This document shows, one piece after another, positions 7,588 through 15,537 of a DNA stretch of 64,000 bases; positions within the stretch are counted from its first letter, which is position 1; every line of letters starts with the position of its first letter. The stretch is from a virus (Duplodnaviria > Heunggongvirae > Uroviricota > Caudoviricetes). The notes beneath the pieces are model-generated. The model was not told where the DNA came from. It searched no databases and saw nothing but the letters and a program-made list of their open reading frames with translations. Where the stretch lies: IMG/VR virus record IMGVR_UViG_2913147268_000005; one strand, written 5' to 3'. Made by a program: the position numbers and the translations under genes.

Positions 7588-10410
7588 ATGACGGCAGAGT
7601 ACCTCAGGGACTGGCAACAACCGCGCCACGCAGTGGGGCGTGAAGGAACGGGGATCCCCGCTCCTGAATCCGCGCTTTCCTCCTGGCTGGATGCCTACCG
7701 GGCAGAGAACGAGCGCCGCCAGGAAATGGCTGATGCGGCGTTCTCAGCCACGCCGCTGGGCAACCTGATTAATAAAAGCCTGGACGCACAGGAAAAACAG
7801 GACAAAACCATCACACTGGCAGGAGACGCCAGAAAACAGGCACGTGGCGCGGTGGATGAAGCCATGGCCTCGCTGCGCCTGCTGCCGTCCTATCTGCGCG
7901 ATCCGCTTATTCGCCACCTCTCCTTCCTGCGCAAAAAACAGGAAGCCGATCGCCGGAAAGGCAAAAAGAGCTGGCAGGCGGAACGCTATGCACGCGGAAC
8001 CCTGCGCAAAATATTCGAACGTCTGGATAGCACTGACGGACGCTGGCTGACACCGGGTTATCGCTCCCTTGCCGGACGCGAACGCCTGGACGATTTGCTT
8101 TACCTGCCGCAGCTCAACAAACACCAGATACAGACGCTGGCCACCATGACGGCGGCGATGTTCAGCAGCACCTTCGAAAAACTCTGCGATGGCTTTGGCG
8201 CGACCGATGGCGAGCTGACCATGGATGTAACCCTGAAGGCGTATCAGATGCTGGCCCGCATGGCGTTACACCTGCACGCCATGCCTCCACATTATGACGC
8301 ACTGACAACAGACAAAGACCGGAGGAACGAACCGGACACGGAGCTGCTGCCGGGCGCAATCCTTCGCCTGACCTGTGCGGAATGGTGGAAACGCAAACTG
8401 TGGCTGTTACGTTGCGAGTGGAGAGAAGAACAACTCCGCGCCGCCTGTCTGGTTTCCAGAAAAACATCACCCTATCTGAGCCAGGACGCGTTAAGCGAGT
8501 TTCGCGCACAGCGCGAGAAAACACGCGATTTCCTGAAAAGTTTCATGCTGGAAAATGAAGACGGGTTCACGATTGATCTCGAGACAGTGTATTACGCGGG
8601 AGTAAGTAACCCGGTTCACCGTAAGGCAGAAATGATGGCCACCATGAAGGGACTGGAACTTCTGGCCGAAGCCCGTGGCGACAAAGCGGTGTTTCTGACT
8701 GTCACCTGCCCGTCAAAATACCACGCCACAACGGAGAACGGTCATCCGAATCCCAAATGGAACGGGGCCACAATGCGCGACTCCAGCGATTACCTGGTTA
8801 ACACGTTTTTTGCGGCGGTCCGCAAAAAACTGAACCGCGACGGCCTGCGCTGGTATGGCATCCGCACGGTGGAGCCTCATCATGACGGCACCGTGCACTG
8901 GCATATGATGGTCTTTGCACATCCGGAAGAAATCGACACCATTGTGTCCCATACCCGCGATATTGCCATTCAGGAAGACCGCCACGAGCTGGGCAATGAT
9001 ATTACTCCGCGCTTTAAGGTGGAGTATGTCGACGGCTCAAAAGGCACGCCAACCAGCTACATCGCCACCTACATCGGAAAGAACCTGGACAGCCGCGCCG
9101 TGGATGGCATCGACCCGAAAACGGGCAAGCCACGCGTGGACCACGAAACCGGAAAATCAATGGCCGAGAGCGTGGAGCGCGCCATCGGCTGGGCGCGCCT
9201 TCACCGGGTCCGTCAGTTCCAGTTCTTTGGCATCCCCTCCCGTCAGGTGTGGCGTGAACTGCGCCGCCTTGCCAGCCAGATGGCACGCAATCCGGAAGGC
9301 CCGCAACGGCTGAAAGATGATGCAATGGATGCGGTACTCGCTGCCGCCGATGCCGGGTGTTTTGCCACCTACATTGAAAAACAGGGTGGCGTGCTTGTTC
9401 CACGCAAGGACTACCTGATTCGCACCGCCTACGACCTCGCAGATGAGCTGAACGATTACGGCGAACAGAGCGTACAGATTTACGGGATCTGGTCACCACT
9501 CATCGGGGAATCCTCCCGTGTGTGCACGCATCCGGATAACTGGAAGCTGGTAAGACGTAAACCGGAAGCGGAAGACAGCGCCCGCGAAAATGGTTTTGAC
9601 CTTCAGGGCGGCCCTGCCGCCCCTTGGACTCGTGGCAATAACTGTCCCCGTGTACAGGAAACGGACAACAACGGGACAGAACAGCCGGAAGAACGGCCAG
9701 CACCGTGGCCGCAGCTCCCTGACGGCGTTGAAGTGAACGAATGGATGCGCTCACTGAAACGACACGAACGCCGGGCGCTGATGCGTTCGCTTCGTGACAA
9801 ACAGGCAAAAAACAGCAGCGATGAAATGCAGAGCTGGACACAGAGCCGCAAACAGCAGCGGCCTTTGCCTGATAACCACGAATTACTCGCTAAAGAATGG
9901 CGGGAGTCTGCTGAATCTCTCGGCCTGCATATCGGTGAACAACAGATGCAGCACCTGTTACGGGGCGGCAGTCTGTACGTTGACGGCAGCATCATTGCAC
10001 CGCAGGGATTTGAAATTGTACGCAAACCGGATACCCGCCCGGACAGCCGAATCACGCAGCTCTGGCAGCGCCTGAGCCGTAATCATGGCGTAAGCAGCAC
10101 GGAGATCCGCCATAACCCGGTCGCCAGCTATCTGGCACAGCTGGGGGCATCAGACCCTGAAGCCGCCGCACGCCTGGCATCCACACTTCAGCAGGGCCAG
10201 AACACCATGAAAACACCCGTTACCGTGCTTTCTGACATGCTGCGCGCCATCCGCGACGCAGAGCACGCACAGAGAATCAGTGAAACCACTGAACGCGCCA
10301 GCCGCAAAGCAGACCTGCTGCGGGGTGGCCTGACCAGTGGAAACAAAAAACAGACAGAAACGGGACTTACGAATCCCGTAAATGAGCAAAAAACGCGCAG
10401 CGATATATGA
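7588..10410 (+). CDS. P2 gpA-family rolling-circle replication initiation endonuclease
   Basis: 940-aa ORF with HUH-type motif GTVHWHMMVF and P2 A-like central region; position before the A-to-Q hotspot. Confidence 0.8.
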   Translation: MTAEYLRDWQQPRHAVGREGTGIPAPESALSSWLDAYRAENERRQEMADAAFSATPLGNLINKSLDAQEKQDKTITLAGDARKQARGAVDEAMASLRLLPSYLRDPLIRHLSFLRKKQEADRRKGKKSWQAERYARGTLRKIFERLDSTDGRWLTPGYRSLAGRERLDDLLYLPQLNKHQIQTLATMTAAMFSSTFEKLCDGFGATDGELTMDVTLKAYQMLARMALHLHAMPPHYDALTTDKDRRNEPDTELLPGAILRLTCAEWWKRKLWLLRCEWREEQLRAACLVSRKTSPYLSQDALSEFRAQREKTRDFLKSFMLENEDGFTIDLETVYYAGVSNPVHRKAEMMATMKGLELLAEARGDKAVFLTVTCPSKYHATTENGHPNPKWNGATMRDSSDYLVNTFFAAVRKKLNRDGLRWYGIRTVEPHHDGTVHWHMMVFAHPEEIDTIVSHTRDIAIQEDRHELGNDITPRFKVEYVDGSKGTPTSYIATYIGKNLDSRAVDGIDPKTGKPRVDHETGKSMAESVERAIGWARLHRVRQFQFFGIPSRQVWRELRRLASQMARNPEGPQRLKDDAMDAVLAAADAGCFATYIEKQGGVLVPRKDYLIRTAYDLADELNDYGEQSVQIYGIWSPLIGESSRVCTHPDNWKLVRRKPEAEDSARENGFDLQGGPAAPWTRGNNCPRVQETDNNGTEQPEERPAPWPQLPDGVEVNEWMRSLKRHERRALMRSLRDKQAKNSSDEMQSWTQSRKQQRPLPDNHELLAKEWRESAESLGLHIGEQQMQHLLRGGSLYVDGSIIAPQGFEIVRKPDTRPDSRITQLWQRLSRNHGVSSTEIRHNPVASYLAQLGASDPEAAARLASTLQQGQNTMKTPVTVLSDMLRAIRDAEHAQRISETTERASRKADLLRGGLTSGNKKQTETGLTNPVNEQKTRSDI

Positions 10411-10486: not shown

Positions 10487-11446
10487 ATGAAAATTTGTAT
10501 CGACGACGGCTCCACCAACATCAAGCTGGCATGGACTGAGAATGGCGAACGCCGCAACGCCATCAGCCCGAACAGCTTCAAGTCGGAATGGTCTGCGCCG
10601 TTCGGTGGCATGCAGCCCGCGAACTACATGCTTGATGGCGTGCGCTATGGTTTTGATCCGGTTAGCGATCGCTTTGTCCAGACGACCGACACGCAATACC
10701 AGTACAGCGATGTGAATGTAATCGCCATTCATCACGCGCTGGTCAAATCAGGCATCACGCCACAGGAGGTGGATGTGGTTGTCACCCTGCCACTGAGCGA
10801 GTATTTCGACACAAACGCACAGCCGGACATGGCCAACATCAACCGCAAAAAAGCGAACGTTATGCGCCCGGTGGAATACCAGAACGGCGAAGCATTCACT
10901 ATCCGTAACGTGCGGGTTATGCCTGAATCCATTCCGGCTGGCTTTAAAGCACTGGCTGACATGAGTCCGTTTGAATCCCTGCTGATTGTGGATTTAGGCG
11001 GAACCACGCTGGATGTGGCAAAGGTTCAAGGGCAACTGGCAGGTATCAGCCAGGTGTTTTGCGATCCACACGTAGGCGTTTCCCTGATGGCCGATGCCGT
11101 ACTGTCGGTGATGGCCACTAACGGTATGCGCACCAGTCACCACATCGCCAATACCATTATCGAACATCGCCATGATGAAGCCTGGCTGCGCCAGCACATC
11201 CACAATGACGCGCATTACGCCAGCCTGATGGCGGTTATTCGTGAAAAGGAAGAAACACTGAAACAACGCGTGATCCGCGCGCTGGCGGTTTTTTCGGGTT
11301 ACGGGCGGGTGATGGTTGTCGGTGGAGGGGCGGAGATTGTGGCACCCGCTATCCGCGAAGTCTGCGGAGTTAATGCGACTTTCATCGCGGACGGGGTGCC
11401 ACAGTTTGCTCTGGTTAATGGGCTGTACGCAATGGACAAGGAGTAA
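10487..11446 (+). CDS. parM: actin-like plasmid segregation ATPase ParM/StbA
   Basis: N-terminus MKICIDDGSTNIKLAW...ISPNSFK and overall match to R1 ParM as recalled. Confidence 0.85.
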   Translation: MKICIDDGSTNIKLAWTENGERRNAISPNSFKSEWSAPFGGMQPANYMLDGVRYGFDPVSDRFVQTTDTQYQYSDVNVIAIHHALVKSGITPQEVDVVVTLPLSEYFDTNAQPDMANINRKKANVMRPVEYQNGEAFTIRNVRVMPESIPAGFKALADMSPFESLLIVDLGGTTLDVAKVQGQLAGISQVFCDPHVGVSLMADAVLSVMATNGMRTSHHIANTIIEHRHDEAWLRQHIHNDAHYASLMAVIREKEETLKQRVIRALAVFSGYGRVMVVGGGAEIVAPAIREVCGVNATFIADGVPQFALVNGLYAMDKE

Positions 11447-11450
11447 ACCA

Positions 11451-11765
11451 ATGACGACACCAACCAGACGGATAAGTTTCTATCTGAAGCCCGCCGCCGT
11501 CAAGAGTGAACAGGAGGCGTGCAATTACCTCGATAGCCTGCCAGCCTCCGAACGCAGCCGCGCGCAACGCGCGGCCTTTCTGGCTGGGCTAGCGCTCATA
11601 AAGCGCAACCCAGCATTTGCCTACTGGATGGCCGAATGGCCAGAGGACAACCTCCCCTTCAATACCGTTAGCATCAAGGAAACATACCAGGATAATCAGC
11701 CTAGCGGAGTTGAATGCAATTTTTATAAAATAAAAAAGAATATTCAGACCTTATTCCCAGAATAA
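11451..11765 (+). CDS. parR: ParR-like centromere-binding adaptor
   Basis: ISFYLKPAAVKSEQEACNYLDSLPASERSRAQRAAFLAGLAL parallels R1 ParR IAFKLNPDV...DSIPQGERSRLNRAALTAGLAL. Confidence 0.7.
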   Translation: MTTPTRRISFYLKPAAVKSEQEACNYLDSLPASERSRAQRAAFLAGLALIKRNPAFAYWMAEWPEDNLPFNTVSIKETYQDNQPSGVECNFYKIKKNIQTLFPE

Positions 11766-11848
11766 TCTGATAATTGTATGTGAACTAATAAAATACAGAC
11801 CAACACATCATTCTGGCACCCTTGCTAACAGGGTGCCAATGTTTCAAA

Positions 11849-12691
11849 TCATGATGAAATTGCCGAAGTTTTTTTATCGTGCTGAAGTACCGCAAATGCC
11901 ATTAAAACCTCAAGAGAATAGCGGCGATAATACTTAACAAAACCATAATAAAATACTCGGGATGCAGCAATACAAAACAAGAGAAGAAAACAAAAAGGTA
12001 ACAGTCTGATATTTATATCTATTAAAAAGGATAGAAGGAGCAGGAACATAAGCAACCAGACTGAAGCGAGAAAAACAAATGTAATGTTTCTACAAAAACC
12101 ATACAAAGCAACATAGTTTTGCATTTTCACCTGATGATTTTTAGAATGTTCATACACATAATGATAAGCAAGGCGAAAAAGATCGCCCCTCAAGCCCTTA
12201 CGTCGATATAGCGTAGATACAGAAAAAACATTTATATAACCATCTCGTATTTGCGGCCAAAAGACTTTAATAAGTATAGAATGCAGTGTGGTTTTATGAT
12301 GTTCTGCTTTATCAAAAGCTGATACAGGAAATAAAAAAACTCCACGAATAAAATTAACTATACTGAACTTAGTATTATGTCGTTTTATTTTCAGGGAGCT
12401 TCTTTTAGAAAACAGATAAATTGAAGGATACCCAAGTTTACTGTTCATGTATTTTTCAATTAAACAGGATGATAGAATAGATATGAAGTGACCTGAAATA
12501 TATGATAGAACGATTAATACCACATATATAAATACACTTATTATTTCTTTATATTTCAGGATATGGTTAAGAATACCTTCTATATAAACAGGGTTAATTT
12601 CAATAGAAAACAAAAAAAGGATAAACAGGAATAACCCACCTGGAATTAGATAGCCCAAAAAGTCATAAAATGAAAACGGATTCTGTGTCAC
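11849..12691 (-). CDS. hypothetical polytopic membrane protein (hotspot cargo gene B)
   Basis: 280-aa ORF, GTG start preceded by AGGGGGAA SD; at least 5 hydrophobic TM-like segments; AT-rich. Confidence 0.7.
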   Translation of the reverse strand: MTQNPFSFYDFLGYLIPGGLFLFILFLFSIEINPVYIEGILNHILKYKEIISVFIYVVLIVLSYISGHFISILSSCLIEKYMNSKLGYPSIYLFSKRSSLKIKRHNTKFSIVNFIRGVFLFPVSAFDKAEHHKTTLHSILIKVFWPQIRDGYINVFSVSTLYRRKGLRGDLFRLAYHYVYEHSKNHQVKMQNYVALYGFCRNITFVFLASVWLLMFLLLLSFLIDINIRLLPFCFLLLFCIAASRVFYYGFVKYYRRYSLEVLMAFAVLQHDKKTSAISS

Positions 12692-12730
12692 ACTTCCCCC
12701 TGTGTTACTTGTAAATTAAAGGGTAAAACA

Positions 12731-13228
12731 TTATTTGTTTTTCCGTAAAGGATTAGCTTTCCATCTTCTTACTAACCATTCGAATTCTTGATATGTAGTA
12801 TCCGAATTAATGCTTTCTCTGATTGCTTTAATTAATGGCTCGGCAATATCATATGTCTCTACAACTGTTGTGTAAGATGTTCTTTTTATCATTTTTTCAT
12901 CATAAATACCTTCACGAATACTTACAGCAACTCGCTCGTAAAAATTTAAAATATATTGAAATTTTCGACGCTCGGCCATTTCTTCATCTGTTATTATGCA
13001 ACCATCACAAGGAAAAACATAAGAACGAAATGATTTGCCTGAACGATGCACTTGTTTCAGGGTATGCAATGACTCTATATATTGCATATCTTGCCGACTC
13101 TCAAAAAGAAAGTTGGCCGTTTGAGTTTTTTTTGCGGTACGCACATTGTAGATAATGGTTCCAATGGCAACCAAAACGCCAAGCAGAACAATAGCATTGC
13201 TGATGATTTGTAGTGTTATTGGGTTCAT
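12731..13228 (-). CDS. hypothetical membrane-anchored protein (hotspot cargo gene A)
   Basis: 165-aa ORF; N-terminal TM helix ITLQIISNAIVLLGVLVAIGTIIY then soluble domain; 39 bp upstream of gene B; AT-rich. Confidence 0.7.
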   Translation of the reverse strand: MNPITLQIISNAIVLLGVLVAIGTIIYNVRTAKKTQTANFLFESRQDMQYIESLHTLKQVHRSGKSFRSYVFPCDGCIITDEEMAERRKFQYILNFYERVAVSIREGIYDEKMIKRTSYTTVVETYDIAEPLIKAIRESINSDTTYQEFEWLVRRWKANPLRKNK

Positions 13229-13245
13229 CCTATTTCATCCATAAA

Positions 13246-13273
13246 AAAGGCGGGGAGCAAATCCCCGCCTCAT
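13246..13273 (-). terminator. rho-independent terminator just upstream of gene A
   Basis: Minus-strand hairpin AGGCGGGGA-tttgc-TCCCCGCCT followed by TTTTTT; preceded by an 11-codon ORF MKKMYDEFDGF. Confidence 0.55.
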
Positions 13274-13425
13274 TAGAGGTCAACGTAGCTTAGAAACCAT
13301 CAAATTCATCATACATTTTTTTCATATCAACCCCCTCATAGAAATCATAACCACGTTTTGTGGTTTTTGTGACGTATAAACTACATCAAAGGCAAGCCAC
13401 GGTCAAATATATAGGCATGCTTACC

Positions 13426-13452
13426 TGCACAAAAGTGCACAAATTTGCACAA
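13426..13452. repeat. three direct TGCACAA repeats at ~10-11 bp spacing (candidate operator)
   Basis: TGCACAAAAGTGCACAAATTTGCACAA; a fourth TGCACAAAAAAA near 13520. Confidence 0.5.
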
Positions 13453-13823
13453 TTTTTTTGAACGACTTTTTACCCTTCCGGCCCGCATGGCGGCTGGATC
13501 CGTCAAGGATCCGTGCGTGCACAAAAAAACGCGCTTTTTCTGCGCGCAGGTGACGGGGGAACAGCCCGCGTTTCAGGGGGTAAATAGCATTCCCTGAACG
13601 ATGTCGCAGAGACACAACAGAATGGCCATATTTCTCACGCTGAGCATGAAAAAGGCGTGAGGGCTTTTGATTTGATGGGGTGAAAGGTAAGGCCGTCAAA
13701 ATCGCACTGAGGCAGCGAGAACATGCAGTCAACGCGGTGGAATTGCGTAAGAGTCTGACCGTCGATGGTGGCGATAAACTGGAAGGCGTCGTGAAATTAT
13801 CTGATTGATACAGGAGCTGGAGA

Positions 13824-13852
13824 GCCGGGGCATAAATTTTTTATGCCCCGGC
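13824..13852. terminator. perfect palindrome, probable bidirectional terminator
   Basis: GCCGGGGCATAAA-TTT-TTTATGCCCCGGC. Confidence 0.5.
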
Positions 13853-13951
13853 GAAGCAGCAGACAAGCGAAGCGCGTCAGCGATACGGCACCTTGCCGAC
13901 CATACTTCATAAGTGCAAAATACGAGCAAAGAAATCAATGGAGGCTGTCTT

Positions 13952-14476
13952 ATGGTCATTAATTACAAGCAGTTAAGAGAAAAACGGGAGCAGGTAAAGG
14001 AGAGCTTTCGCCGCAATGAAGATCTGACCCCGCTTGTACGCCTTGCCCAGGGCATTGTTGATGCTTATGAAATCTCGCTGGAGCTGCCATCACAGACCTG
14101 GACAGATAGCGACGGTAATCGCCAGCATTACGTTTCATGCGGACTGGAAGCAGCCGAAGGATTTCGCAGAATGCCTTTATCCCAGATCCCTGCCGCTACC
14201 CCCAAAGCACGGGGCAGCAATGATGAGCGAAAACTGACTTTTAGTATTGAAACGGTGGTTGACGACACACCTGGCGAAGTCGCGTTCGTGCACACTCCTG
14301 TTTCGATCGCAATGTATAACGATGAAATACAGGTTCGCGTTAATAATAATATCGTGCCACTTAAAGAAGGTAATTCACCCTACACCACCGTTTGTGAAGC
14401 CATTCAATATTACGTTCTCTCTGAAATTGATAATCTCAAGCCTGACGGCACCCAGAAAATGGTTCAACTCTGGTAA
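13952..14476 (+). CDS. hypothetical protein (hotspot cargo)
   Basis: 174-aa ORF from ATG with GGAGG SD 7 nt upstream; no homology recognised. Confidence 0.55.
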   Translation: MVINYKQLREKREQVKESFRRNEDLTPLVRLAQGIVDAYEISLELPSQTWTDSDGNRQHYVSCGLEAAEGFRRMPLSQIPAATPKARGSNDERKLTFSIETVVDDTPGEVAFVHTPVSIAMYNDEIQVRVNNNIVPLKEGNSPYTTVCEAIQYYVLSEIDNLKPDGTQKMVQLW

Positions 14477-14477
14477 A

Positions 14478-14512
14478 AAGGACAGCCCCATCACGGGGCT
14501 GTTTTTTCATCA
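14478..14512. terminator. bidirectional terminator between convergent genes
   Basis: CAGCCCCATCACGGGGCTG hairpin flanked by A-run and T-run. Confidence 0.6.
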
Positions 14513-15537
14513 AGAAGAGCATAAGAGTTAAAACGGATCACCTCTTCGCCAAGCCAGTCATTGATGTGCTTCATAGCCTCCATAACGGGCATCAGCTCGT
14601 TAATTGCGTAAACCCGCGCTGCCTTCTCCACATCGCCAAACGCACTTTTTTCGCCCGGCATCGCCCCCATCAGTTGCGGCGGAACGCGGTGCGCAGCCAG
14701 CACATCATCACGGGATGCCGCCTTAACATTCATGAATTCATCTTTTGCGGTGATCTGCTGGAACGGCAAAATTTGCACCCCCTCTTTGCCCCCGTTGGGC
14801 GCATGAATGAGCACGTTTTTAAACGCACCACCACCACGTGCCCCCTGTAGCGTTTCTTTCAGGGAGTCCATGCTTTCGCGGTTTACCTGCGCTGCACCGA
14901 TGTAGATGATGCACCCGGCGTGGGATCCGTTGTCGTAGTACAGTTTTCTGAACATGTCCGCCGAATGAGAAAGGCTGGCCGAGAGTAATGCGCCAAGATA
15001 TTCCGGCATGCCGTAGATTTCCTGGTTAATATCCGGATTCATCAGGTGGCACACTTTGCCAGGACGAAACTGAAACGCGTCCTTGCCATCCTGCACATAC
15101 CACCATGATTCAAGATCGCTTCCGCGTCGCATGTATTTCGCCAGGGCGTGCCGTAATTTAAGCGGTTCGCCGAGCATATTGCTTCGAAGCTCAAGGAATG
15201 CGTTACCGAACACAAACCAGTCCAGCGCCAGCGCCGAGAAATCCTGCCGGGAAAGCAGCGGGTGCGGGATGTAGCAACCGAGTAATACATTGCGCTTAAA
15301 GTAAAGCGCAGACTGATGCCAGGACGTTTGCCGGGCTGCTCTTGCCAGACCGTACCAGTCCACCGGGGTTTCATACCACCGCCCGTTATCAGCACAGTAC
15401 ATATTGTCCAGCAGGTCATGCCCGGTCAGGCGATAAGGACCATCAAATGTGAATGCACTGAGCGATGATTCTTTCCTGAGCGCATCAGCGAGATCAATGC
15501 GTGAACTCATGCGCACTTTTTTATTTTTTCTGCTCAT
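14491..15537 (-). CDS. P2 gpQ-like portal protein
   Basis: 348-aa ORF; P2-type Q-P (minus) / O-N-M-L (plus) divergent arrangement. Confidence 0.75.
   Translation of the reverse strand: MSRKNKKVRMSSRIDLADALRKESSLSAFTFDGPYRLTGHDLLDNMYCADNGRWYETPVDWYGLARAARQTSWHQSALYFKRNVLLGCYIPHPLLSRQDFSALALDWFVFGNAFLELRSNMLGEPLKLRHALAKYMRRGSDLESWWYVQDGKDAFQFRPGKVCHLMNPDINQEIYGMPEYLGALLSASLSHSADMFRKLYYDNGSHAGCIIYIGAAQVNRESMDSLKETLQGARGGGAFKNVLIHAPNGGKEGVQILPFQQITAKDEFMNVKAASRDDVLAAHRVPPQLMGAMPGEKSAFGDVEKAARVYAINELMPVMEAMKHINDWLGEEVIRFNSYALLDEKTAP

What the first reader, a model, noticed from the sequence alone, without database searches (positions are those of the whole stretch)
13952..14476. Orphan 174-aa gene in the same hotspot, flanked by palindromic terminators
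A plus-strand ORF with a good SD sits between the perfect palindrome at 13824-13852 and the bidirectional terminator at 14478-14512, convergent with portal gene Q. It is an insulated single-gene unit in the slot P2 uses for old. No motif recognised.
Basis: partly seen in the sequence, partly recalled or inferred. Interest (0 to 1): 0.5.

Follow-up and report, generated by a model that had tools for sequence, protein, structure and literature searches.

The report
Dispensable portal-adjacent prophage gene, function unknown
This is a real but dispensable single gene wedged between the DNA-packaging site and the portal gene of a P88-type (P2-like) E. coli prophage; it belongs to an uncharacterised family of small soluble phage proteins (PHROG 5091) with no recognisable fold, so it is an ordinary accessory gene ("moron") of unknown function and not a demonstrated defence gene.

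Summary
A 174-aa ORF (13952-14476, +) has a GGAGG Shine-Dalgarno. It is convergent with portal gene Q and shares a true bidirectional terminator with it; Q's stop codon lies in the hairpin loop.

The interpretation needs correcting.
- The gene is not in P2's tin/old slot. That slot (gpA side of cos) holds an AT-rich membrane protein plus a DUF4760 gene here. ORF174 lies on the other side of the inferred cos, between a conserved 67-nt palindrome island and Q.
- The sub-slot is not a multi-cargo hotspot. In E. coli genomes sampled rows were either empty (P88 type) or ORF174-occupied (397 of 5426 genomes).
- The 13824-13852 palindrome is a backbone element, also present in phages lacking the gene, and is not a canonical terminator.
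- The gene is not an orphan. It matches phrog_5091 (E 1e-67), and four P2-like lineages keep a homologue in the same cos-to-Q position, diverging in step with the portal. Remote relatives sit in moron slots of lambdoid and other prophages.
- P88 most likely lost it by deletion.

No Pfam, NCBIfam, PADLOC, PDB or BFVD relative was found, and dN/dS is about 0.06. The best guess is a self-transcribed, non-enzymatic binding protein acting in phage-phage or host conflict. That function is unproven.

The parts
13952..14476 (+). ORF174 coding sequence (174 aa; WP_000236495.1; family phrog_5091)
   Evidence: The ORF and its translation are, and the RefSeq CDS. It matches phrog_5091 at E 1.4e-67. Homologues are. 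dN/dS is 0.06. The AF2 model has pLDDT 80 and pTM 0.73.
13940..13944 (+). Shine-Dalgarno GGAGG, 7 nt before the ATG
   Evidence: Read directly from the sequence. A GGAG at the same spacing is conserved in the Salmonella homologue loci.
13893..13921 (+). Candidate sigma-70 promoter: TTGCCG, 17-nt spacer, CAAAAT (8 of 12 matches); inferred, not shown
   Evidence: A custom scan finds the same layout, TTG(C/T)C(G/T)-17-CAAAAT, 30-33 nt before the ATG in the window, L027, L011 and L029. The surrounding DNA in those loci is otherwise unalignable. The match falls below the 9-of-12 threshold of the standard scan.
14475..14507 (.). Bidirectional intrinsic terminator shared by ORF174 and portal Q (A-tract, 8-bp GC stem 14482-14489/14495-14502, T-tract); Q's stop codon 14491-14493 sits in the loop
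   Evidence: The scan calls it terminator-like on the minus strand. It folds on both strands with z = -5.1 and -4.5.
13881..14505 (+). Roughly 625-bp presence/absence segment (promoter-like element, ORF174, terminator and the last ~5 codons of Q), missing from P88-type phages
   Evidence: Homology to P88, P884B11 and Shae_phiSM runs from 13426 to 13880/13884 and then resumes at 14510-14516. Sampled E. coli records show two junction spans, 611 bp or 1225 bp. GC is 47.5%, against 53-54% for Q and P.
13814..13880 (.). Conserved 67-nt island holding the 13824-13852 palindrome; left boundary of the ORF174 segment; a backbone element, not part of the gene unit
   Evidence: It is present in phages without ORF174. 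It is 97% identical (the 54-nt palindrome core 100% in L034) in lineages L030 and L034, whose packaging genes are about 72% identical at the DNA level. It has no U-tract.
13426..13580 (.). Inferred cos region: three TGCACAA direct repeats at 10-nt spacing (13426, 13436, 13446) and the position where the linear P884B11 record opens (13470|13471)
   Evidence: The block is conserved in E. coli, Salmonella and Trabulsiella P2-like prophages. The ends of the P884B11 record fall inside it. In P2, cos lies 186 bp from Q's stop. The assignment is inferred by synteny and conservation, and there is no match to P2's 19-nt cos.
14491..15537 (-). Portal gene Q, convergent neighbour
   Evidence: The protein is 98.3% identical to P88 Q except for the C-terminal tail.

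Best explanation
ORF174 is a dispensable accessory gene of the moron type. It is resident at the left end of the packaged genome of a P88-like (Xuanwuvirus, P2-family) prophage, between cos and the portal gene.

It is most likely transcribed on its own from a weak sigma-70 promoter just upstream, and transcription ends at a bidirectional terminator that also ends the P-Q late operon. The product is a small (174 aa, pI about 5), soluble protein with no transmembrane segment or signal peptide. The model has two N-terminal helices, an antiparallel sheet of about 8 strands and a C-terminal helix. The residues conserved across the family suggest no catalytic motif.

My best guess at function is that it binds another protein rather than catalysing a reaction, and that it serves phage-phage or phage-host conflict. 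One version is exclusion of a competing phage from the lysogen, in the manner of single-protein excluders such as P2 Tin. The other is neutralisation of a host or rival factor during lytic growth.

Shown: the gene is real and under purifying selection; it is non-essential; its position, terminator and family membership; its independence from the neighbouring cargo.

Inferred: the promoter, expression in the lysogen, a binding rather than enzymatic mode of action, and any role in conflict.
For: - Real gene under purifying selection.
- Dispensable: absent from P88, P884B11, Shae_phiSM, 520873 and Chuche. It is present in 397 of 5426 E. coli genomes, against 1147 records carrying the same junction backbone.
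- Own terminator.
- Conserved promoter-like element in three lineages.
- Orientation: opposite to the late P-Q operon.
- Composition: GC and GC3 are lower than in the packaging genes.
- Location: inside the gpA-gpQ cos-proximal region reported as a defence hotspot (PMC9122126).
- Context of remote members (23-33% identity): always solitary, in classic moron positions of unrelated temperate phages. These are Q antiterminator to holin, lysis cassette to terminase, a baseplate operon, and just after gpA, followed by HicB and Phd/Fic modules.
- Not linked to the TM280/DUF4760 cargo.
- Soluble and mildly acidic across the family.
- Near-invariant residues are mostly aromatic, hydrophobic or glycine (Y39, S42, L43, L45, W50, G55, Y60, F97, T101). 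This suggests a binding scaffold rather than an enzyme.
Against: - No similarity to any known defence protein (PADLOC, 0 hits), to Tin or to P2 Orf91.
- The cos-to-Q sub-slot is binary rather than a rotating set of cargos.
- The gene co-diverges with the portal, which is unlike the fast swapping typical of defence cargo.
- In lambdoid and E217-like phages the homologue is co-oriented inside late operons. That points to lytic-cycle rather than lysogen expression and fits a phage-benefit role at least as well as host defence.
- The promoter is only an 8-of-12 match.
- No expression or phenotype data were found.
Confidence: 0.4

Rival explanations
1. Phage-benefit accessory factor used during lytic growth. 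In this reading the protein is a counter-defence or host-takeover inhibitor, made early by read-through of the replication operon or late, and it binds and blocks a host or rival-element protein.
For: - Homologues sit co-oriented inside late operons: first gene after antiterminator Q, after Rz/Rz1, and inside a baseplate operon with only 48- and 64-nt gaps.
- In every P2-like locus examined the gene is co-oriented with the early gpA operon.
- It is inherited vertically with the packaging module.
- It is small, acidic, soluble and apparently motif-free, as many phage inhibitors are.
Against: - It has its own promoter-like element and terminator, and in this window minus-strand genes with their own terminator-like hairpin (13247-13271) separate it from the early operon.
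- About two thirds of sister prophages, including viable P88, do without it.
- No similarity to a named anti-defence family turned up in Pfam, NCBIfam or PHROGs; a dedicated anti-defence library was not available.
Confidence: 0.25
2. Non-essential packaging- or virion-associated helper tied to cos, portal or terminase function. Examples would be a factor that modulates packaging initiation or termination, or one that resists capsid hijacking by a satellite.
For: - Four P2-like lineages keep the gene exactly between cos and the portal.
- Its divergence parallels that of the portal and terminase.
- In lambda-type cos phages the relatives lie between the lysis genes and the small terminase subunit, where cos lies in lambda.
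Against: - It is absent from viable P88 and most relatives, whose portals are 98% identical.
- The Trabulsiella homologue lies on the other side of cos, next to gpA.
- Other relatives sit between Q and holin, in a baseplate operon, or in a neighbourhood without recognisable phage genes.
- Co-divergence is equally explained by tight physical linkage.
- Genome ends are generally permissive sites for morons.
Confidence: 0.1
3. Lysogenic-conversion gene that benefits the bacterium for reasons unrelated to phages, such as stress tolerance, colonisation or virulence. The ST131 lineage would retain it for that reason.
For: - 282 of the 397 positive genomes carry a copy that is at least 99% identical, many of them ST131 such as EC958.
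- 395 of the 397 matches span at least 80% of the gene.
- It has moron architecture.
Against: - The protein is cytoplasmic, with no signal peptide or membrane segment.
- No similarity to any virulence or metabolic family was found.
- High copy identity in ST131 is expected from clonal descent alone.
- Family members are spread over prophages of Salmonella, Edwardsiella, Morganella, Trabulsiella and an insect symbiont, with no common niche.
Confidence: 0.1
4. Decaying selfish passenger with no current function.
For: It has been lost repeatedly or at high frequency, since the empty allele is the majority. No function is recognisable.
Against: - dN/dS is 0.06.
- 395 of 397 E. coli copies are near full length.
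- Length and motifs are conserved down to 23% identity across Enterobacterales.
Confidence: 0.05

Closest known systems
PHROG family phrog_5091 (unknown function)
   Same: The protein matches the profile end to end at E 1.4e-67 (residues 1-168 against profile positions 1-164 of 164). All 42 diverse relatives tested also match it.
   Different: Nothing differs; this is the family it belongs to. The family has no assigned function, no Pfam or NCBIfam model and no solved or annotated structure.
P2 lysogenic-conversion genes tin and old (gpA-gpQ cos-proximal region)
   Same: Like them it is a non-essential, independently terminated gene in the gpA-gpQ interval of a P2-family prophage. Tin is likewise a single protein without recognisable domains.
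   Different: There is no sequence relationship to Tin (hhalign probability below 1%); Old was not compared. Tin and old lie on the gpA side of cos, whereas ORF174 lies on the portal side. No exclusion phenotype is known for ORF174.
Morons of temperate phages (for example lambda bor, or HK97/HK022 morons; concept recalled from Juhala, Hendrix and colleagues, not re-read here)
   Same: It is an extra gene present in some and absent from closely related genomes. It has its own terminator and a plausible own promoter, its base composition deviates somewhat, and it sits at a module boundary.
   Different: Expression from the prophage has not been shown. The gene has been inherited vertically with the packaging module across lineages that are about 70% identical, rather than looking like a recent insertion. 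The polymorphism in E. coli looks like a deletion in the P88 type.
Defence-system cargo of the P2/P4 cos-adjacent hotspots (Rousset et al. 2022, PMC9122126; PMC13586616)
   Same: It lies in the interval those studies mined, and WP_000236495 is listed 167 times in their locus table.
   Different: I found no sign that it was tested there: the accession occurs only in the locus list, although that file is truncated in storage. It has no PADLOC hit. Its sub-slot does not rotate among cargos. It is not linked to the adjacent AT-rich cargo.

Membership tests
phrog_5091 | Significant full-length match to the family profile HMM | tested here: met
   E 1.4e-67, 227 bits, residues 1-168 against profile positions 1-164 of 164. 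All 42 aligned relatives also match.
Moron (autonomous accessory gene of a temperate phage) | Present in some genomes and absent from closely related ones at the same position | tested here: met
   P88, P884B11, Shae_phiSM, 520873 and Chuche lack it at an otherwise 93-95% identical junction. 397 of 5426 E. coli genomes have it, while 1147 records carry the junction backbone.
Moron (autonomous accessory gene of a temperate phage) | Own transcription terminator | tested here: met
   Canonical bidirectional hairpin with U-tract at 14475-14507. The Salmonella homologue has an analogous hairpin between the ORF and Q.
Moron (autonomous accessory gene of a temperate phage) | Own promoter | tested here: inconclusive
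   TTGCCG-17-CAAAAT (8 of 12) at 13893-13921. The same layout is conserved in L027, L011 and L029 but not in L030. The standard scan at 9 of 12 found nothing upstream.
Moron (autonomous accessory gene of a temperate phage) | Expressed from the repressed prophage | not testable with these tools
   This needs RNA-seq or a reporter fusion in a lysogen. No literature was found.
Moron (autonomous accessory gene of a temperate phage) | Base composition different from the flanking phage genes | tested here: met
   GC is 47.4% and GC3 47.4%, against 53-54% and 59-61% for Q and P. The deviation is modest, far less than that of the TM280/DUF4760 cargo (32-35%).
P2-family gpA-gpQ defence-hotspot cargo (Rousset 2022) | Located between replication gene A and portal gene Q | tested here: met
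   gpA is at 7588-10410, the ORF at 13952-14476 and Q at 14491-15537. The protein is listed in the paper's locus table.
P2-family gpA-gpQ defence-hotspot cargo (Rousset 2022) | Position occupied by many alternative gene sets in related phages | tested here: not met
   The cos-to-Q sub-slot is empty or ORF174-occupied. In one search, 1099 of 1147 E. coli records hold the junction in one piece, and sampled rows span 611 or 1225 bp. In 80 viral contigs, 68 were scored empty, 9 held the ORF, 2 had an intermediate spacing (one proved an empty-type scoring artefact, one is a 270-nt unrelated filler) and 1 was truncated. The variable cargo lies on the other side of cos.
P2-family gpA-gpQ defence-hotspot cargo (Rousset 2022) | Similarity to a known or candidate defence protein | tested here: not met
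   PADLOC-DB v2: 0 families at E <= 1. There are also no Pfam or NCBIfam hits.
P2-family gpA-gpQ defence-hotspot cargo (Rousset 2022) | Confers resistance to phage infection | not testable with these tools
   This needs a plaque or efficiency-of-plating assay of a clone.
P2 Tin / P2 Orf91 homologue | Detectable sequence or profile similarity | tested here: not met
   hhalign of the 83-sequence family profile against P2 Tin gave probability 0.4%, and against Orf91 0.1%. Old was not compared.
Core structural or packaging gene of the lineage | Present in all functional members of the lineage | tested here: not met
   It is absent from P88 and other deposited phage genomes whose portal is 98% identical.
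Core structural or packaging gene of the lineage | Conserved position and co-divergence with the packaging genes | tested here: met
   The order cos, ORF, hairpin, Q is seen in the window, L011 and L029 and, as far as the cut contig shows (ORF and Q only), in L030. ORF identities of 62/60/56/77% track portal identities of 75/74/69/96%. The Trabulsiella copy is an exception.

The most novel reading that the evidence does not exclude
phrog_5091 proteins are a previously unrecognised family of single-gene effectors in inter-phage conflict, either an excluder or defence protein or an anti-defence inhibitor. They would have a fold not represented in the PDB or BFVD, and would be carried at cos-proximal or late-operon moron sites by P2-like, lambda-like and other temperate phages of Enterobacterales. 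ORF174 would be the allele fixed in the ST131-type P88-like prophage.
Probability: 0.3. Interest if true: 0.55.

Novelty: new member of a known kind. Interest (0 to 1): 0.3.

Why it matters
If the protein proves to have an exclusion or counter-defence activity, it would add a small, domain-less, structurally unassigned family to the catalogue of phage conflict genes. It is present in about 7% of complete E. coli genomes, including the pandemic ST131 lineage. It would also show that the portal side of cos in P2-like phages carries a long-resident accessory gene and not only rotating cargo. As it stands, it is a well-delimited hypothetical gene in an already described hotspot. It is useful as a cloning candidate but not surprising.

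The side observations may interest P2-family specialists as much as the gene itself. These are a 67-nt near-invariant island that forms a mosaic junction, and a cos block built on TGCACAA repeats that is unlike P2's cos.

Tried and rejected
- Library scans of ORF174 against Pfam, NCBIfam and PADLOC gave nothing above noise. Complex1_LYR at E 0.17 is noise.
- A single-sequence PDB search hit designed helical-repeat proteins (E 2.7e-7, residues 125-168). I rejected this as spurious because the hit vanishes with the family profile, and the model shows strands plus one helix in that region.
- A second AF2 run with 83 sequences gave the same topology and no better confidence.
- Looking for P2's cos: the 19-nt sequence has no match within 3 mismatches, and there is no BLAST similarity to the P2 cos junction. 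Cos was therefore inferred from conservation and from the ends of a linear phage record.
- A search for the Ogr-type late-promoter dyad TGT-N12-ACA was not enriched (10 found, 15.8 expected) and found none at the P/O promoter region, so it was uninformative.
- The idea that ORF174 works with the neighbouring TM280/DUF4760 genes was rejected. PhiR44_2 and 6 of 6 ORF-positive viral contigs with enough flank carry other cargo, and DUF4760 also occurs without the ORF.
- The idea that it pairs with the 212-aa gene downstream in lambda-type loci was rejected. That gene is a conserved phage gene, phrog_1924.
- The annotated 42-aa ORF upstream (13680-13808) was considered as a partner and rejected. 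It is probably non-coding and is present without ORF174.
- Literature searches for the accession or the PHROG number found nothing.
The narrow alignment found only two species representatives.

Full report
**What the window is**

The region is a P2-family prophage of the P88 type (genus Xuanwuvirus) in an E. coli chromosome. The 1.3 kb around the finding is 100% identical to many ST131-type genomes. It is also identical to four deposited phage records (vB_EcoM-705R2, vB_EcoM-569R5, PhiR44_2 and a P88-like ST131 prophage record).

The gene order is:
- gpA: 7588-10410
- ParM and ParR-like: 10487-11765
- two minus-strand genes: a 280-aa multi-pass membrane protein and a DUF4760 protein, 11849-13228
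- about 720 bp without a convincing gene
- the ORF in question: 13952-14476
- portal Q (14491-15537, minus), terminase P, then O, N, M and so on

**Checking the observation**

The ORF is as described. ATG is at 13952, GGAGG lies 7 nt upstream and TAA is at 14474-14476. RefSeq annotates the same CDS as a hypothetical protein.

It is a genuine gene. Full-length homologues at 96, 85-88, 79, 60-63 and 46% identity align without frame problems. dN/dS against a 97%-identical Salmonella copy is 0.06, and against more distant copies dS is saturated while dN is 0.3-0.5.

The downstream hairpin is a textbook bidirectional terminator, with an A-tract, an 8-bp GC stem and a T-tract (z = -5.1 and -4.5). 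Q's TGA stop lies in the hairpin loop, so one structure ends both convergent units.

The 13824-13852 palindrome is real and very stable. It has no U-tract on either strand and was not called terminator-like.

**Where the gene really sits**

P88, P884B11, Shae_phiSM, 520873 and Chuche match the window from 13426 to about 13880 and again from about 14510. They lack everything in between. The presence/absence unit is therefore about 625 bp (13881-14505). It comprises the upstream leader, the ORF, the terminator and the last ~5 codons of Q.

The palindrome lies outside this unit, in the backbone shared by ORF-less phages.

To the left of the unit is a block with three TGCACAA direct repeats at 10-nt spacing (13426, 13436, 13446), followed by GC-rich conserved sequence. 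This block recurs in Salmonella and Trabulsiella P2-like prophages whose portals are only about 70-75% identical to the window's. The linear P884B11 record opens inside it, at the equivalent of 13470|13471.

In P2 itself, cos lies 186 bp from Q's stop, and tin and old lie on the gpA side of cos. I therefore infer that 13426-13580 is cos, although it has no similarity to P2's 19-nt ends.

On that reading the tin/old-equivalent slot is 11770-13425. It holds the AT-rich TM280 and DUF4760 genes (32-35% GC against 53-58% for the backbone), and it differs in every relative examined. ORF174 lies on the other, portal side of cos.

**Is the cos-to-Q position a hotspot?**

It is not a hotspot in the usual sense. 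I used the P88 junction as a query against 5426 complete E. coli genomes. It matched 1147 records, and 1099 of them hold the junction in one piece. Every junction-spanning row among the 60 sampled spanned either about 611 bp (empty) or about 1225 bp (ORF174), with one at 1168 bp. The ORF itself is found in 397 genomes, and 395 of those matches cover at least 80% of it.

Among 80 IMG/VR contigs carrying the palindrome, 68 scored as empty, 9 held the ORF, 2 showed an intermediate spacing and 1 was truncated. Of the two intermediate ones, one proved to be an empty-type scoring artefact and the other carries an unrelated 270-nt filler.

The ORF is not linked to the TM280/DUF4760 cargo.

**History of the gene**

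Four P2-like lineages keep a homologue directly next to, and convergent with, the portal: the window, Salmonella L011, L029 and L030. Where the upstream DNA is available (the window, L011, L029), the order is cos, ORF, hairpin, Q.

| Lineage pair | ORF identity (%) | Portal identity (%) |
|---|---|---|
| window – L011 | 62.5 | 74.7 |
| window – L029 | 59.9 | 73.5 |
| window – L030 | 55.7 | 68.7 |
| L011 – L029 | 76.8 | 96.0 |
| L011 – L030 | 54.0 | 71.0 |

ORF identity follows portal identity throughout. This indicates long co-inheritance with the packaging module, with the ORF evolving faster than the portal.

P88's portal is 98.3% identical to the window's. Its C-terminal tail is different (TQPTS*), and its stop codon falls inside the conserved GCGCGTCAG motif. 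The simplest reading is that the P88-type empty allele arose by a deletion that fused a truncated Q to the backbone.

In Trabulsiella the 46% homologue lies instead just after gpA, on the other side of cos, followed by HicB-containing and Phd/Fic toxin-antitoxin modules. The gene has therefore moved within the gpA-gpQ interval at deeper evolutionary distances.

**The family**

The protein matches phrog_5091 (unknown function) end to end. An exhaustive profile search of 1.8 billion representatives found 89 proteins at E <= 0.001. Most are 155-175 aa, 23-33% identical and aligned over their full length. All 42 that I tested match phrog_5091, and none matches Pfam convincingly.

Every name given by a source database is 'hypothetical protein', apart from one evident mislabel. 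Hosts are Enterobacterales: E. coli, Salmonella, Trabulsiella, Edwardsiella, Morganella and an Erwinia-like insect symbiont.

The genomic contexts are all solitary:
- between antiterminator Q and the holin in two lambdoid lineages
- between Rz/Rz1 and the small terminase subunit in lambda-type prophages L018 and L151, with L026 apparently the same arrangement
- inside a baseplate operon of an E217-like myophage
- one neighbourhood without recognisable phage genes

These are classic moron positions.

**The protein**

Two AlphaFold2 runs agree on the fold (pLDDT 80 and 78, pTM 0.73 and 0.66). It has two N-terminal helices, an antiparallel sheet of about 8 strands with two long hairpins, a disordered loop at 83-89, and a C-terminal helix.

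The fold searches gave the following results:
- Foldseek against the PDB and BFVD finds nothing at E <= 0.001.
- AFDB could not be searched.

The family is soluble and mildly acidic, with a median pI of 5.1. The near-invariant positions are Y39, S42, L43, L45, W50, G55, Y60, F97 and T101, plus a common 'TV.DD(S/T)P' motif. They look structural rather than catalytic. There is no relationship to P2 Tin or Orf91.

**Transcription**

The standard scan finds no promoter at 9 of 12 or better upstream of the ORF. An 8-of-12 element, TTGCCG-17-CAAAAT, lies at 13893-13921, 30 nt before the ATG. The same layout recurs (TTGTCT-17-CAAAAT, 33 nt before the ATG) in Salmonella lineages L011 and L029, where the surrounding DNA cannot be aligned. 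That conservation is the only evidence for an autonomous promoter, so it remains an inference.

**Most likely explanation and rivals**

I rate a dispensable, self-contained accessory gene whose product acts by binding in phage-phage or phage-host conflict as the most likely explanation (about 0.4 for the moron/excluder version). A lytic-cycle counter-defence or host-takeover role is the main rival (0.25), because the homologues in other phage types sit inside late operons. A non-essential packaging or virion helper (0.1), a non-phage lysogenic-conversion role (0.1) and a functionless passenger (0.05) are less likely. The arguments for and against each are listed with the rivals. None of these can be decided by computation with the tools at hand.

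**Comparison with what is known**

The gpA-gpQ cos-proximal hotspot of P2-like phages is already described (PMC9122126; PMC13586616). This very protein appears 167 times in the locus table of the first paper. I found no sign that it was tested there, though that file is truncated in storage.

The gene is therefore a member of a known kind, an accessory gene of unknown function in a known variable region. It comes with a refinement: it occupies a stable, binary sub-slot on the portal side of cos and is inherited with the packaging module. Interest is modest at 0.3. It would rise to about 0.55 if a defence or anti-defence activity with a new fold were demonstrated.

Noticed in passing
window 13814-13880: This 67-nt island (the 29-nt perfect palindrome plus GCGAAGCAGCAGACAAGCGAAGCGCGTCAG) is 97% identical (the 54-nt palindrome core 100% in L034) in P2-like lineages L030 and L034. 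Their portal and terminase DNA is only about 72% identical to the window, and their flanks do not align. Its right edge (GCGCGTCAG|) is a mosaic junction followed by at least four unrelated sequences: the ORF174 module, a 56%-identical homologue module, P88's Q tail directly, and a 270-nt filler. It has no U-tract, so it is not a canonical terminator. Its function is unknown; it could be a protein-binding site, an RNA 3' end or a recombination site.
   Followed up: partly
window 13426-13580: This is the probable cos of the Xuanwuvirus lineage. It has three TGCACAA direct repeats at exactly 10-nt spacing (13426, 13436, 13446; a fourth at 13518) and a GC-rich block. It is conserved in E. coli, Salmonella and Trabulsiella P2-like prophages, and the linear P884B11 record opens at 13470|13471. 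It has no similarity to the 19-nt cos of P2 and 186, so P4-type satellites that rely on P2's cos may not be packaged by these phages.
   Followed up: partly
window 13680-13808 (+): This 42-aa GTG-start ORF is annotated as a CDS in P88, P884B11 and PhiR44_2 but is probably not a gene. Nine of its 42 residues differ from P88 for only 11 nucleotide changes, and the Salmonella L027 copy has an internal stop.
   Followed up: yes
window 11849-13228 (-): This is the true cargo of the tin/old-equivalent slot: a 280-aa multi-pass membrane protein (phrog_12528; weak PADLOC Csx27-like hit at E 1e-5) plus a 165-aa DUF4760 protein (phrog_2284). Both are 32-35% GC against 53-58% for the backbone, and a terminator-like hairpin follows the DUF4760 gene at 13247-13271. 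This pair looks a stronger candidate for recently acquired defence cargo than ORF174. It occurs independently of ORF174.
   Followed up: partly
window 10487-11765 (+): A ParM (StbA) and ParR-like (Plasmid_stab_B) partition pair lies directly after replication gene A in this integrated P2-like prophage. It is conserved in P88 and its relatives, which hints at a plasmid-like or partition-assisted stage in this lineage.
   Followed up: no
window 14491-14510 versus L003 4452-4476: The C-terminal tail of the portal protein differs between ORF174-positive and ORF174-negative phages (…LLDEKTAP* against …LLDTQPTS*), although the rest of the protein is 98% identical. The last ~5 residues of the portal thus tolerate replacement at the indel junction.
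   Followed up: yes
L009 8001-10053 (Trabulsiella guamensis P2-like prophage): Here the 46% homologue of ORF174 lies immediately after gpA, on the gpA side of cos. It is followed by a HicB-containing gene pair and a Phd/Fic module. The cos-to-Q interval in this prophage holds only a 78-aa ORF.
   Followed up: partly
L018, L026, L151 (lambda-type prophages): In three lambda-type prophages the remote ORF174 relative lies upstream of a conserved 212-aa gene (directly in L026 and L151, two small ORFs away in L018). That gene is phrog_1924, labelled 'minor tail protein', and it sits upstream of the small terminase subunit. This is an odd position for a tail protein, and the label may be wrong.
   Followed up: partly
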